Assembly: GCA_037138055.1 (NCBI GenBank)
Contig: JBAXJB010000003.1
Coordinates: forward strand, 5,755 to 69,754
Length of the DNA stretch: 64,000 nucleotides
From: Alphaproteobacteria bacterium
GTDB lineage: Bacteria > Pseudomonadota > Alphaproteobacteria > Paracaedibacterales > CAITNM01
Direction: 5' to 3'
The notes under the pieces are model-generated. The model was given only the letters and a program-made list of their open reading frames with translations, was not told where the DNA came from and did not search any database. A program made the translations under genes and the position numbers. Shown one piece after another: positions 27,829-40,553 of the stretch; within the stretch, counting starts at the first letter, position 1; every line of letters starts with the position of its first letter.

Positions 27829-30000
27829 GTGTCTGCTGGTGAAATTCTTTCAGTTAAAATTAAAACTACGTTTGGAGACGACACTTTTGTAGTACAACGC
27901 GTTGTGGCTGAGGAAACATTATCTGAGTCATATGTTGTTGATGTGTACGCATCAACAACAACTTCTACATTTGATGGAGACGACTTGGTTCACACGAAAG
28001 CCGGAGTAATTTTTGAAGTATATGGACAAAAAGATTCATCTTCAAAACAGGGAGTTCGTGCTTATCATGGCGTAATCACACACATGGAACATTTGAAAAC
28101 TGTCATTGATGAAGAAAAACAGTTAACGCATTTTTTCCACTTTCAGCTGCACTCTACTTTTTGGATGTTAAAACACGGATCCGACCACAGAATTTTTCAA
28201 GAACAATCAGCAATCGATATCATCCAAACTATATTAAAAGAAAATGGCGTATCTGATTTTGAGATAAAAGCCAGTGGAGGCACAAGCGTGCGCGAATACT
28301 GTGTGCAATATGGTGAAAATCACTTTGATTTTGTTTCAAGATTACTTGAAGAAGAAGGGATTGGATATTATTTCACCCATACAGATTCAAATCACACCAT
28401 GGTTTTATTTGATCAAAATTCAAGTTTTACGCACATTGCCCAAGGCTCATTAGCATTTTTAAATGTGGATGCTGACGGCGCATTCATTGATCGTGTTTTT
28501 GCTTTTGGTAAAAAATCTCAAGTAGCCCCTAAAGCTTATAAGACAATTGATTACAATTATAAAACACCCCACACACAATTGCTAAATAGCAGCTCTGGAC
28601 CTGGGTTTGGAAAAGAAATTTACGAATATCCAGGATTATTCCAAAAATCGAGTGATGGGCATAAATTAGCTGATCAACGTATGGAAGAAATTGAATGGTT
28701 TACAAAACGTGTTTATGGCAAAACAACCTGCCCAAGCATAGCACCTGGCTATACATTTACGCTGAAAGAGCATCCCATCAAAGAATACAACAAGGAATAT
28801 GTCATTTCTTATGTACGTCATGAAATTATTTCTCAAGCAGACGATCAATCAACAGAAGGAAGAGAATCTAATCTTCTAACTTATACAAACAGTTTTGAAG
28901 GTTTCTTAAAAACGATTCACTATCGCCCCTACCGTAAAACACTTAAACCGCGCATTTATGGATCACAAACAGCTTTTGTAACAGGTGCAGGAACCGAAGT
29001 ATACGGCGATCCTATGGCACGCATCAAAGTTAAATTTCATTGGGATTTACGTAACCCTGACGATGAAACAAGTTCTTTATGGATTAGAGTAAGCCAATCA
29101 TTGAGTGGAGCTGCTTGGGGAGCTTTATACATGCCACGCATTGGTATGGAAGTGGTTGTAGCTTTTATTGATGGAGATCCAGATAGGCCGTTAGTTACTG
29201 GATGCGTATACAACCAAGCATTTATGCCGCCTTATTCCCCCCAAGATAAACCTCATTACATGACTTTGAAGAGTAAAACGTTTGATGATGATTCTGGTCA
29301 TAATGAATTACGTTTTAGTGACGATCCCGGTAAAGAAGAAATATTCCTGCATGGTCAATACGATATGAATACAGTGATTGAACATAGCAGAAAAGAGGAT
29401 ATGAACACAGGCGATGATACGTTAACCATCCACAAAGGTGATAAAATGATTCACCAAAAAGGAAAAGGTACTATGTATTTAACCCTTATTGATAAGGGTG
29501 ACCGCACCACAAATCTTAAAAAGGGAAATTTTGTTATCGATGTTAATGGAACTATTTTAATTAAAGCGACCAAAGACATTACGATACAAACACCTAAAAA
29601 TATCATCATGAAGGCCGGGCAAAATATTATGATGAAGGCAGGGAAAAACATTATGATGAAAGCCGGGATGAATATACAGTCAAAAGCTGGGAAGAATATT
29701 CAAACAAAAGCAGGAATGAATATACAGTCCAAGGCAGGCATGAATATTCAATCAAAAGCAGGAATGAATATACAGTCAAAAGCTGGCATGAATATACAAG
29801 AAAAGGCGGGAATGAACATACAAGAAAAAGCAGGCATAATGATTCAAACCAAAGCTGGTATGATGATTCAGATGAAGTCCGGATTAGCTTTTCAAGCAAA
29901 AGCAGGAGCAATGATGGAATTAAAAAGCGGTGCGTTAATAAAAGCTGAAGGCGGTGCAATGGGCATGTTCAAAGGTGCAATTACGAAATTAGGAAATTAG
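27829..30000 (+). CDS. vgrG: Type VI secretion spike protein VgrG (TssI)
   Basis: GTG start. The gp27-like region is DHRIFQEQSAIDIIQTILKENGVSDFEI...REYCVQYGENHFDFVSRLLEEEGIGYYFTH. The gp5 OB-fold region is ARIKVKFHWD...LWIRVSQSLSGAAWGALYMPRIGMEVVVAFIDGDPDRPLVTGCVYN. The C-terminus is an octapeptide beta-helix. Confidence 0.92.
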   Translation: MSAGEILSVKIKTTFGDDTFVVQRVVAEETLSESYVVDVYASTTTSTFDGDDLVHTKAGVIFEVYGQKDSSSKQGVRAYHGVITHMEHLKTVIDEEKQLTHFFHFQLHSTFWMLKHGSDHRIFQEQSAIDIIQTILKENGVSDFEIKASGGTSVREYCVQYGENHFDFVSRLLEEEGIGYYFTHTDSNHTMVLFDQNSSFTHIAQGSLAFLNVDADGAFIDRVFAFGKKSQVAPKAYKTIDYNYKTPHTQLLNSSSGPGFGKEIYEYPGLFQKSSDGHKLADQRMEEIEWFTKRVYGKTTCPSIAPGYTFTLKEHPIKEYNKEYVISYVRHEIISQADDQSTEGRESNLLTYTNSFEGFLKTIHYRPYRKTLKPRIYGSQTAFVTGAGTEVYGDPMARIKVKFHWDLRNPDDETSSLWIRVSQSLSGAAWGALYMPRIGMEVVVAFIDGDPDRPLVTGCVYNQAFMPPYSPQDKPHYMTLKSKTFDDDSGHNELRFSDDPGKEEIFLHGQYDMNTVIEHSRKEDMNTGDDTLTIHKGDKMIHQKGKGTMYLTLIDKGDRTTNLKKGNFVIDVNGTILIKATKDITIQTPKNIIMKAGQNIMMKAGKNIMMKAGMNIQSKAGKNIQTKAGMNIQSKAGMNIQSKAGMNIQSKAGMNIQEKAGMNIQEKAGIMIQTKAGMMIQMKSGLAFQAKAGAMMELKSGALIKAEGGAMGMFKGAITKLGN
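29611..29970 (+). repeat. 24-bp in-frame tandem repeat, about 15 octads (KAGMNIQS consensus), forming the VgrG C-terminal beta-helix
   Basis: The octads read directly are KAGQNIMM, KAGKNIMM, KAGMNIQS, KAGKNIQT, KAGMNIQS x3, KAGMNIQE x2, KAGIMIQT, KAGMMIQM, KSGLAFQA, KAGAMMEL, KSGALIKA and EGGAMGMF. The central copies are nearly identical at the DNA level. Confidence 0.9.
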
Positions 30001-30002
30001 AC

Positions 30003-39585: not shown

Positions 39586-40553
39586 AAAAAACGCTACCAG
39601 AACAAATTCTAGAAACGCCAGAGGCGTTTGACCTTGATCAGCTTATTTACATTGTTGAATCCATTAGAACCAATGCGAATCCGTTGGGGGAAGCTTCAAA
39701 TCCTGTCCGTGAAGCTGTGCGCGTGCGTAGCAAACTTACCATGCACCAAGAAGGCACAGAAGTTGACCATATTAATGTAAAAAACACACCATCTGGCCTG
39801 CCCGAGGTTTATATCAATACCCTAAGCATTGGCGGTGTTAACGGTCCTTTGCCAACGCCTTATACGGAAATGTTGCTTGACCAGGTTAAAGAAAAAGATT
39901 TTTCAGGCCTGCATTTTTTAGATATTTTTCATCACCGATTAGCGTCTATGTGGCACCGGTTGCGCAAACGCACTTATCCGCACCTTTTCAAACGGCCTCC
40001 GCTGAGTACGCCCTTGGGCAAGTTGCAGGAAAACCTAAGTGGGTTTAAACAGCAGGGTGATGTTGCTCACCCTTTATTTTTTGATCATTTCTGGAGAAGG
40101 TCCCGGTCACTTAGCAGCTTACTGCAGATGATTGAGAAATTTTTCAATGTTAAAGCAACAGCGCAACCATTTGAGGGCACCTGGAGAACAGTTGATGCAT
40201 CTGAAGGCAGCACTATTGGTAGCAAAGGACAATTCCAGATTTTAGGAAAAAATGCCATTTTAGGCCTTAGATGCTGGGACCAAGCTGCCGGTTTTTCTAT
40301 AAACCTGGCCCCTTTGGACTGGAAAACCACCCAGCAGTTTTTACCATTTACTGATACCACCCTGGGCGGAACCAATTTCAGCCAGCTAAAACAGCTTTTA
40401 GTAAGTTATATGGGCACCCTGCCCCGGGTATTTTTAAATGTTTCCCTTAAACAAAATGAAAACCAAGGCACAATGTTAAATGCGAAACATGGCCTTGGGT
40501 GGAACACTTGGTTGGCCGGTGCAAAAGCGGACAAGGCAAGGGTGAAGGTTTAG
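39540..40553 (+). CDS. tssG: Type VI secretion baseplate protein TssG (ImpH/VasB)
   Basis: FDLDQLIYIVESI...NPVREAVRVRS and GGVNGPLPTPYTEMLLDQVKEKDFSGLHFLDIFHHRLASMWHRLRKR match the TssG pattern. The track GTG start overlaps tssF by 46 nt; the ATG at 39549 is an alternative. Confidence 0.88.
   Translation: MDAMAAPARRTSATVKKTLPEQILETPEAFDLDQLIYIVESIRTNANPLGEASNPVREAVRVRSKLTMHQEGTEVDHINVKNTPSGLPEVYINTLSIGGVNGPLPTPYTEMLLDQVKEKDFSGLHFLDIFHHRLASMWHRLRKRTYPHLFKRPPLSTPLGKLQENLSGFKQQGDVAHPLFFDHFWRRSRSLSSLLQMIEKFFNVKATAQPFEGTWRTVDASEGSTIGSKGQFQILGKNAILGLRCWDQAAGFSINLAPLDWKTTQQFLPFTDTTLGGTNFSQLKQLLVSYMGTLPRVFLNVSLKQNENQGTMLNAKHGLGWNTWLAGAKADKARVKV

What the first reader, a model, noticed from the sequence alone, without database searches (positions are those of the whole stretch)
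27829..40553. Fragmented type VI secretion system: vgrG and tssF-tssG are split by housekeeping genes and tssE is missing from its usual place
Seen: there is a full-length VgrG (27829-30000) and a full-length TssF-TssG pair (37774-40553). They lie about 7.8 kb apart and are separated by lepB, a patatin-like lipase, tsaD and an MFS transporter. The gene directly upstream of tssF is an 805-aa orphan, not tssE. I could recognise no tssB/C, hcp, tssK/L/M/A, clpV or PAAR gene anywhere in the 64 kb. Spot GC counts of vgrG and tssF/G lines (45-55%) resemble core genes, not the AT-rich orphans.
Established: canonical T6SS(i) loci keep the 13 core genes together, with tssE-tssF-tssG normally contiguous.
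Inference: there are three possibilities. This may be a functional T6SS whose genes were scattered by genome rearrangement in a host-associated alphaproteobacterium. It may be a minimal spike-and-baseplate-wedge remnant. Or it may be a module co-opted to work with a non-canonical sheath or tube. The first and third would be an unusual architecture worth characterising, especially given the eukaryote-directed-looking ORFs next to each fragment.
Basis: partly seen in the sequence, partly recalled or inferred. Interest (0 to 1): 0.8.

Follow-up and report, generated by a model that had tools for sequence, protein, structure and literature searches.

The report
Scattered type VI secretion genes, Holosporales-style
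The window carries real, intact type VI secretion genes (a vgrG spike and a tssF-tssG baseplate pair) lying among housekeeping genes, but this scattered layout has already been described for Holosporales protist endosymbionts, so it is a new example of a known arrangement.

Summary
VgrG (27829-30000), TssF (37774-39585) and TssG (39540-40553) are full-length by Pfam. Between them lie a MORN/YwqK-like gene, lepB, a patatin gene, tsaD, an MFS transporter and an 805-aa orphan. No other T6SS core gene is in the 64 kb.

The layout is neither a recent scramble nor a remnant. The same block is conserved in at least 10 related freshwater MAGs (TssF 75-99% identical). dN/dS for tssF, tssG and vgrG is 0.05-0.08, the same as neighbouring housekeeping genes. 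The nearest named relatives are Holosporales. In Paracaedibacter, Odyssella and a third genome, tssF-tssG is also isolated, without tssE.

Midha et al. [quoted passage not shown]

The best reading is therefore two loci of a dispersed, functional Holosporales-type T6SS. I could not test whether the remaining loci exist in this genome.

The only unexplained part is the orphan upstream of tssF. It belongs to a clade-restricted, fast-evolving family with a signal-peptide-like N-terminus, coiled coils, and invariant Cys and His motifs. It matches no known family or fold.

The parts
27829..30000 (+). vgrG (tssI), the T6SS spike/hub. 723 aa with gp27-like, gp5 OB, gp5 C-terminal and a weak DUF2345 region. 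It carries no toxin extension.
   Evidence: Pfam. 73-98% identical orthologues sit at the same position in L006, L007, L008, L021 and L023. dN/dS is about 0.05-0.06, though dS is saturated.
30003..30854 (+). MORN-repeat (YwqK-like) protein, 283 aa, starting 2 nt after the vgrG stop. It has an acidic, variable N-terminus and C-terminal MORN_2 repeats. It is probably a VgrG-associated partner: adaptor, immunity protein or cargo.
   Evidence: Pfam MORN_2 7.7e-10. Sequence and junction. It lies directly downstream of vgrG in L006-L009, L019-L021 and L023, at 52-97% identity. A [ywqK-vgrG] pairing is reported for related families (PMC8163844).
30907..35161 (.). Intervening genes: lepB (+), patatin-like phospholipase (-), tsaD (+) and an MFS transporter (+). 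These are housekeeping or accessory genes, not T6SS parts.
   Evidence: Pfam. The order is the same in 10 related loci. dN/dS is 0.03-0.14.
35285..37702 (+). 805-aa member of a clade-restricted orphan family. It sits 71 bp upstream of tssF on the same strand. It has a signal-peptide-like N-terminus, long central coiled coils, an invariant S-x2-D-G-M-C-G motif (C268) and an invariant H-Y-[DNE]-K motif (H772). It is not TssE.
   Evidence: No family hit. 38 homologues, all from this clade. Only 29 hits among 1.84 billion representatives. Invariant columns in alignment A1. AF2 model pLDDT 87. Foldseek against PDB returns only coiled-coil noise. dN/dS is 0.19-0.28 and identity is 38-62% where TssF is 75-94%.
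37774..39585 (+). tssF, T6SS baseplate wedge subunit, 603 aa.
   Evidence: PF05947 2.1e-159. dN/dS is 0.074 against L011 at dS 0.41. Homologues are 42-45% identical in named Holosporales.
39540..40553 (+). tssG, T6SS baseplate wedge subunit, 337 aa. It has a GTG start and overlaps tssF by 46 nt.
   Evidence: PF06996 4.1e-54. The overlapping arrangement is kept in relatives. dN/dS is 0.083 against L011.
40603..41940 (.). Variable slot between tssG and ksgA. Here it holds a 171-aa P-loop ORF (+) and a 242-aa orphan (-), both low in GC.
   Evidence: Only Walker-A-level matches. Neither ORF has a homologue in any fetched locus. The slot measures 0.1-5.9 kb in relatives. GC is 0.35 and 0.30.

Best explanation
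These are two of the several loci of a dispersed but functional type VI secretion system (T6SS-i type). The organism is an uncultured protist-associated alphaproteobacterium of the Holosporales, in a Finniella/Paracaedibacter-like freshwater clade.

Inferred mechanism. TssF and TssG form the baseplate wedge. With TssK and TssE, encoded elsewhere, the wedge assembles around the VgrG trimer. A TssJLM-type membrane complex docks the baseplate. A TssBC sheath around an Hcp tube, also encoded elsewhere, contracts and fires the VgrG spike with its cargo into the host cell or a competitor. The MORN/YwqK-like gene that abuts vgrG is a spike-associated partner.

What is shown here: gene identities, integrity, conserved order, purifying selection and lineage.

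What is inferred from related complete genomes and from the literature: that the remaining core genes exist elsewhere in this genome, and that the machine fires. The dispersal is ancient and stable in this lineage, not a recent rearrangement.
For: - Full-length Pfam matches for VgrG, TssF and TssG.
- The block vgrG-MORN-lepB-patatin-tsaD-MFS-orphan-tssF-tssG-...-ksgA is conserved in L006-L009, L011, L012, L019-L021 and L023, where TssF is 75-99% identical.
- dN/dS is 0.074 for tssF, 0.083 for tssG and about 0.05 for vgrG. Flanking housekeeping genes give 0.03-0.16.
- The nearest named TssF homologues are Ca. Paracaedibacter symbiosus, Ca. Finniella inopinata and Ca. Odyssella thessalonicensis. 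MAGs with 99% identical TssF are labelled Finniella or Odyssella.
- tssF-tssG stands alone among housekeeping genes, without tssE, in L003, L004 and L005.
[quoted passage not shown] They are transcribed in Ca. Bodocaedibacter. Its supplement places tssE alone at CPBP_00258, far from tssF/G at about CPBP_00125-126.
- Reviews report the T6SS as conserved in almost all Holosporineae.
Against: - No sheath, tube, membrane-complex, TssE, TssK, TssA, PAAR or ClpV gene was seen for this clade. None is in the window, in 7 kb beyond its left end (L027), or in 19 related loci.
- The window's TssF is only about 42% identical to TssF of the named genomes for which the full gene set is documented, so extrapolating to this clade is an inference.
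- No experiment has shown T6SS firing in any Holosporales (PMC11909080).
- dS is saturated in most pairwise comparisons. Only the comparison with L011 gives dependable dN/dS values.
Confidence: 0.8

Rival explanations
1. These are auxiliary or orphan copies. A complete canonical T6SS cluster with its own tssE-tssF-tssG and vgrG lies elsewhere in the genome, and these are spare or satellite modules.
For: Orphan vgrG islands are common in bacteria with canonical T6SS clusters (general knowledge). The rest of the genome was not available.
Against: Ca. Bodocaedibacter has a complete genome, and its supplementary T6SS table as read here shows one TssG, next to tssF by the paper's [tssG-tssF] description. 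Its remaining genes are dispersed. In Paracaedibacter, Odyssella and GCA_964351815 the tssF found is also isolated. The genome scan returned one tssF locus per related MAG. Satellite tssFG pairs without tssE or tssK are not a known pattern.
Confidence: 0.07
2. This is a decaying remnant. The T6SS is being lost during genome reduction, and vgrG and tssFG are leftovers without function.
For: Holospora has lost the T6SS (PMC11909080). No other core gene lies within 64 kb. In L011, tssF aligns as two HSPs that suggest a frameshift.
Against: The ORFs are intact and match the profiles end to end. dN/dS of 0.05-0.08 equals that of essential neighbours. The genes are retained at the same place across at least 10 species-level MAGs. 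The single L011 frameshift could be an assembly error.
Confidence: 0.05
3. The spike and wedge are co-opted. They work with a non-canonical sheath or tube (for example an eCIS or phage-tail-like module), or they do a non-secretory job.
For: Reviews call the Holosporineae T6SS probably non-standard, because some core genes seem to be missing. Bodocaedibacter has only 'Hcp-like' and 'TssJ-like' genes, and no ClpV appears in the paper's T6SS component list as quoted.
Against: TssF and TssG match the T6SS-specific Pfam families at 532 and 184 bits, not phage baseplate families. Related genomes encode tssB-tssC-hcp and tssK-L-M-A. Nothing phage-tail-like or eCIS-like is in the window.
Confidence: 0.05

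Closest known systems
Dispersed T6SS of Holosporales endosymbionts (Ca. Bodocaedibacter vickermanii, Paracaedibacteraceae, Caedimonadaceae; Midha et al. 2021, PMC8163844)
   Same: An isolated tssF-tssG pair among housekeeping genes. No adjacent tssE. vgrG lies next to a YwqK/MORN-repeat gene. The host is a protist-associated, AT-rich alphaproteobacterium. TssF falls in the same family, at 42-45% identity to named members.
   Different: In this clade the vgrG-MORN pair and the tssF-tssG pair are only 7.8 kb apart, with a fixed set of genes between them. In L003-L005, no vgrG lies within 10 kb of tssFG. A clade-specific orphan family always sits just upstream of tssF. The MORN gene is downstream of vgrG, whereas the paper describes ywqK as upstream. 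The other loci could not be checked.
Canonical T6SS-i gene cluster (for example tssA-tssB-tssC-hcp-tssE-tssF-tssG-...-vgrG, as in L022 and L024-L026)
   Same: The same protein families for TssF, TssG and VgrG, and the same overlapping tssF-tssG junction.
   Different: In the canonical loci fetched here, a 151-168-aa ORF (the presumed tssE, assigned by position and size, not scanned against a family library) ends 4-17 nt before tssF, and tssB/tssC lie directly upstream of it. Here the upstream gene is an 805-aa orphan, and no tssB, tssC, tssE, hcp or tssA is found in 64 kb.
OTU-type cysteine deubiquitinases (compared with the 805-aa orphan only)
   Same: At motif level only. There is an invariant D-G-x-C-G loop, a later helix followed by a strand ('LWAIINNLNVFVF'), and an invariant H-Y-[D/N/E] on a C-terminal beta hairpin. 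These recall the OTU 'DGNCLFRA ... HYD/N' signature (and the OTUD5/OTUD3 sequences).
   Different: No Pfam OTU hit, even on spliced domains at E<=10. hhalign against an OTUD5/3/1/viral OTU alignment gives 0.5% probability. No OTU structure is among the top 50 Foldseek PDB matches listed. About 500 aa, mostly coiled coil, separate the Cys from the His. The protein has a signal-peptide-like N-terminus. It is therefore not filed as an OTU.

Membership tests
T6SS-i core components | TssF: full-length match to PF05947 | tested here: met
   2.1e-159, 532 bits, profile positions 2-607 of 608
T6SS-i core components | TssG: match to PF06996, encoded immediately after tssF | tested here: met
   4.1e-54, profile positions 2-303 of 304. 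It overlaps tssF by 46 nt.
T6SS-i core components | VgrG: gp27-like plus gp5 OB plus gp5 C-terminal architecture | tested here: met
   Phage_GPD 1.6e-70, Phage_base_V 4.7e-14, Gp5_trimer_C 1.8e-10
T6SS-i core components | The remaining core genes (tssA, B, C, E, J, K, L, M, hcp, clpV) are present in the same genome | not testable with these tools
   Only 64 kb is available. None is in the window or in 7 kb beyond its left end.
Canonical contiguous T6SS cluster | tssE-tssF-tssG are contiguous and the 13 core genes sit in one locus | tested here: not met
   The gene upstream of tssF is an 805-aa orphan with no GPW_gp25/TssE match. Housekeeping genes flank both fragments.
Holosporales-type dispersed T6SS (PMC8163844) | A stand-alone [tssF-tssG] pair in a housekeeping context without tssE | tested here: met
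   Seen in the window, and in L003, L004 and L005 from named Holosporales
Holosporales-type dispersed T6SS (PMC8163844) | vgrG adjacent to a YwqK-family (MORN-repeat variant) gene | tested here: met
   A MORN_2 gene (7.7e-10) starts 2 nt after the vgrG stop. The pairing is conserved in 8 related loci.
Holosporales-type dispersed T6SS (PMC8163844) | Separate [tssB-tssC-hcp] and [tssK-tssL-tssM-tssA] loci, and a lone tssE, elsewhere in the genome | not testable with these tools
   Documented for Ca. Bodocaedibacter. No access to the rest of this genome.
Holosporales-type dispersed T6SS (PMC8163844) | The organism belongs to Holosporales / Holosporineae | tested here: inconclusive
   The best named TssF hits are Paracaedibacter, Finniella, Odyssella and 'Holosporales bacterium', at 42% identity. 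MAGs with 99% identical TssF are labelled Finniella or Odyssella. A bacterial NDUFA12 homologue, which I take from general knowledge to be typical of alphaproteobacteria, is present. No 16S or multi-marker phylogeny was run.
TssE (GPW_gp25), as a candidate identity for the gene upstream of tssF | A protein of about 130-170 aa matching gp25/TssE | tested here: not met
   The ORF is 805 aa. It has no Pfam or NCBIfam hit. A TssE HMM built from four canonical clusters gives E>1 everywhere.
OTU cysteine protease, as a candidate identity for the 805-aa orphan | Sequence or profile similarity to the OTU domain | tested here: not met
   Pfam gives nothing at E<=10 on spliced Cys+His domains. hhalign probability is 0.5%. 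hmmsearch against PDB sequences gives nothing relevant.
OTU cysteine protease, as a candidate identity for the 805-aa orphan | Papain-like/OTU fold with the Cys and His juxtaposed | tested here: inconclusive

The most novel reading that the evidence does not exclude
The clade-restricted orphan family is fixed immediately upstream of, and co-oriented with, tssF in every member of this lineage. It occurs in 1-3 paralogous copies. It could be a new T6SS-linked host-interaction factor. One possibility is a secreted Cys/His hydrolase, perhaps a deubiquitinase-like effector with a coiled-coil insertion. Another is a periplasmic accessory that stands in for a core part reported as apparently missing in Holosporineae. 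Either would make this locus the entry point to the unknown effector biology of Holosporales T6SSs.
Probability: 0.2. Interest if true: 0.55.

Novelty: new member of a known kind. Interest (0 to 1): 0.25.

Why it matters
The T6SS is the main candidate host-interaction machine of Holosporales endosymbionts of protists, yet it has never been studied experimentally.

This window adds an uncultured freshwater clade to the lineages that keep the dispersed layout. It shows that the layout is stable and under strong purifying selection, which argues that the machine works even though its genes are scattered. That confirms existing knowledge and adds little to it.

The one lead worth following is the fast-evolving orphan family attached to tssF. 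It may be an effector or an accessory specific to this clade.

Tried and rejected
- Exact-protein look-ups of the window's TssF and RsmD found nothing. The look-up of ORF 1323-2441 extended the view by only about 7 kb, with no T6SS genes.
- The promoter and terminator scan of 27-42.3 kb was at chance level (46 found against 44.9 expected, and 15 against 12.2). It says nothing about operon structure.
- The idea that the orphan is an OTU deubiquitinase was not supported. Pfam on spliced domains gave nothing. A profile search against PDB sequences gave nothing relevant. hhalign against an OTU alignment gave 0.5% probability. Foldseek against PDB returned only coiled-coil noise. It remains a motif-level lead only.
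- A profile search with the spliced domain returned only four fragments of the same family.
- An exhaustive HMM search found only 29 hits, and none has a known domain. P0181 is a coiled-coil false positive.
- PADLOC on the slot genes and the orphans gave only Walker-A matches.
- I looked for a PAAR-size ORF in the largest intergenic gap, 58827-59157. There is only an 82-aa Lys/Ala-rich ORF with a signal-peptide-like start.
- I considered finding the clade's tssB/tssC through a metagenome scan.
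Full report
**1. What is in the sequence.**

Pfam scans confirm the three T6SS genes at the stated coordinates.
- VgrG, 27829-30000, 723 aa: Phage_GPD 1.6e-70, Phage_base_V 4.7e-14, Gp5_trimer_C 1.8e-10, and a weak DUF2345 match.
- TssF, 37774-39585, 603 aa: PF05947 2.1e-159, covering the whole profile.
- TssG, 39540-40553, 337 aa: PF06996 4.1e-54. It has a GTG start and overlaps tssF by 46 nt.

A 283-aa MORN_2-repeat protein at 30003-30854 starts 2 nt after the vgrG stop.

The 805-aa ORF at 35285-37702, 71 bp upstream of tssF, has no hit in Pfam, NCBIfam or PADLOC.

**2. Nothing else from the T6SS is in the window.**

I scanned every ORF of 100 aa or more in the 64 kb. 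The rest is housekeeping: cytochrome bd, a sigma-70 family factor, Lon, ClpX, DnaB, DksA, KsgA, Ddl, FtsQ, RNase III and an NDUFA12 homologue, which I take from general knowledge to be typical of alphaproteobacteria. There are also a handful of low-GC orphans.

The window is tightly packed, and no intergenic gap exceeds 331 bp. No unannotated tssE-size gene can therefore be hiding.

As an independent check I built HMMs of TssA, TssB, TssC and TssE, and used a single Hcp sequence. These came from the canonical clusters that flank tssF in L022 and L024-L026, assigned by position and size. I searched the six-frame translations of the window and of 19 related loci. No hit was better than E=0.3.

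vgrG is 37.5%, tssF 42.5% and tssG 45.7%, against 37.7% for the window.

**3. Whose genome this is.**

The closest TssF homologues (71-100% identity) are unnamed metagenomic proteins. The closest named ones, at about 42%, are from Ca. Paracaedibacter symbiosus, Ca. Finniella inopinata, Ca. Odyssella thessalonicensis and 'Holosporales bacterium'.

A scan of GTDB species representatives found 99% identical TssF in MAGs labelled 'Ca. Odyssella sp.' and 'Ca. Finniella inopinata', and 75-94% identical TssF in a dozen freshwater MAGs. Because the true Finniella and Odyssella proteins are only 42% identical, these labels are loose. The clade looks like a separate Holosporales or Paracaedibacteraceae-like lineage.

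**4. The layout is old and stable.**

The block runs vgrG - MORN - lepB - patatin(-) - tsaD - MFS - orphan family (1-2 copies) - tssF - tssG - variable slot - ksgA - M24 peptidase - ... - dksA. It recurs in L006, L007, L008, L009, L011, L012, L019, L020, L021 and L023. L001, L010, L013-L015 and L018 show the part their contigs cover.

In three more distant Holosporales genomes, tssF-tssG again stands alone among housekeeping genes. No tssE is adjacent and no vgrG lies within 10 kb. These are Paracaedibacter L003, Odyssella L004 and GCA_964351815 L005.

In the non-Holosporales loci picked up by the same scan, the presumed tssE ends 4-17 nt before tssF, and tssB and tssC lie directly upstream of it.

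**5. The genes are under selection.**

I calculated Nei-Gojobori dN/dS against L011, the only comparison with unsaturated dS (0.4-1.05). It gives 0.074 for tssF and 0.083 for tssG. LepB, patatin, TsaD, KsgA, M24 and DksA give 0.04-0.16.

vgrG gives 0.05-0.06 against L021 and L007, but dS is saturated there. These values are incompatible with a decaying remnant.

**6. What the literature already says.**

Midha et al. [quoted passage not shown] They also report that these genes are transcribed in Ca. Bodocaedibacter.

Their supplementary table gives the following positions:
- tssG at CPBP_00126, with tssF adjacent;
- tssE alone at CPBP_00258;
- vgrG at CPBP_00353 and CPBP_00355;
- tssJ-like, K, L, M and A at CPBP_00933-937;
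- tssB, tssC and an Hcp-like gene at CPBP_00985-987;
- a DUF4280 gene at CPBP_01201.

[quoted passage not shown] It also calls it probably non-standard, and notes that no experimental data exist (PMC11909080). Two further papers agree.

The MORN gene beside vgrG matches the reported ywqK-vgrG pair.

**7. Best explanation.**

The window holds two loci of a dispersed, functional Holosporales-type T6SS. TssF and TssG build the baseplate wedge around the VgrG hub, and the MORN/YwqK-like protein is a spike-associated partner. The sheath, tube, membrane complex, TssE, TssK and TssA are encoded elsewhere.

The first part is shown here. The second is inferred from related complete genomes, and I could not test it for this genome. 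The window, 7 kb beyond its left end (L027) and all related loci lack those genes. I put confidence at about 0.8. The rivals are auxiliary copies of a canonical cluster (0.07), a remnant (0.05) and a co-opted module (0.05).

**8. The orphan upstream of tssF.**

This is the only part without an explanation.
- **Distribution.** It belongs to a family of 38 proteins found only in this clade. An exhaustive profile search of 1.84 billion representative proteins returned 29 hits, and none has a known domain.
- **Position.** It is immediately upstream of and co-oriented with tssF in all clade members. It often has a second, shorter paralogue (699-700 aa) or a divergent 781-aa one nearby.
- **Linkage.** In L007 and L012 an oppositely oriented ATPase gene separates it from tssF. 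tssFG cannot depend on its promoter in those genomes.
- **Rate of change.** It evolves three to four times faster than its neighbours. dN/dS is 0.19-0.28, and identity is 38-62% where TssF is 75-94%.
- **Features.** It has a hydrophobic, signal-peptide-like N-terminus, a variable central coiled coil, an invariant S-x2-D-G-M-C-G motif (C268), an 'LWAIINNLNVFVF' motif and an H-Y-[DNE]-K-F motif (H772). The divergent paralogue keeps the H-Y-E-K motif and has a looser counterpart of the Cys segment, 'SSGAACQCGFFSF...DDG'.
- **Structure.** The AF2 model is confident (pLDDT 87, pTM 0.70), except at the Cys loop.

The motifs recall OTU cysteine proteases, but every test of that idea failed or was uninformative. 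I therefore describe it only as a clade-specific, probably exported, fast-evolving protein with a candidate Cys/His active site. A host-interaction role is plausible but untested. A Sec-type signal would be atypical for T6SS cargo.

**9. Verdict.**

The novelty claim fails, because the architecture is already described for Holosporales. This is a new member of a known kind, from an uncultured clade. The only local peculiarities are the 7.8-kb proximity of the vgrG and tssFG loci and the attached orphan family. Interest is low to moderate.

Noticed in passing
window 40603-41940 (between tssG and ksgA): This slot varies strongly among otherwise syntenic relatives. It is 0.1 kb in L008, whose TssF is 99% identical. 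It is 1.66 kb here, holding a P-loop 171-aa ORF and a 242-aa ORF with GC 0.35 and 0.30. It is 1.1-5.9 kb in the other loci. Neither window ORF has a homologue in any fetched locus.
   Followed up: partly
window 35285-37702; L001 4778-7123(-); L006 10001-12100; L007 7545-9647: The orphan family next to tssF occurs as 1-3 paralogues per genome: a long form, a roughly 700-aa form with a shortened coiled coil, and a divergent 781-aa form. The long and roughly 700-aa forms keep both the Cys motif and the H-Y-[DNE]-K motif; the 781-aa form keeps H-Y-E-K and a looser Cys segment. The pattern suggests a duplicating, diversifying gene family.
   Followed up: yes
L011 10001-11811: tssF of this MAG aligns as two HSPs that meet at codon 93 in different frames. 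This is either a frameshift (pseudogene) or an assembly error.
   Followed up: no
L008, L009, L013, L016, L017, L020 and L023 (record titles): MAGs whose TssF is 76-99% identical to the window's are labelled 'Ca. Finniella inopinata', 'Ca. Finniella sp.' or 'Ca. Odyssella sp.'. TssF of the real F. inopinata and O. thessalonicensis is only about 42% identical. The taxonomic labels of these MAGs look unreliable.
   Followed up: partly
window 31802-32893 (-); L001 200-1291 and 1397-2491: The patatin-like phospholipase between vgrG and tssF is highly conserved (83-99% identity, dN/dS about 0.05). It is tandemly duplicated in L001. A patatin gene also lies about 4 kb from tssG in Paracaedibacter (L003), but it is not detectably orthologous.
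   Followed up: partly
window 11192-13366 (-): A 724-aa membrane adenylate/guanylate cyclase with dCache, HAMP and cyclase domains lies next to a tRNA-Ser at 10995-11084. An environmental sensor like this is notable in an otherwise reduced, host-associated genome.
   Followed up: no
window 58883-59131 (-): An 82-aa ORF with a signal-peptide-like N-terminus and a Lys/Ala/Gln-rich tail sits in the largest intergenic gap. It is not PAAR-like.
   Followed up: no
window 23114-24697, 44726-45565, 49194-50399, 527-1267, 1323-2441 and 7627-8520: Six further ORFs of 246-527 aa have no Pfam or NCBIfam hit. The four whose GC was computed (23114-24697, 35285-37702's neighbour set excluded: 44726-45565, 49194-50399) are mostly low, at 0.33-0.35. 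The 279-aa ORF is found only in the two closest relatives whose loci cover that position (L008 and L009).
   Followed up: partly
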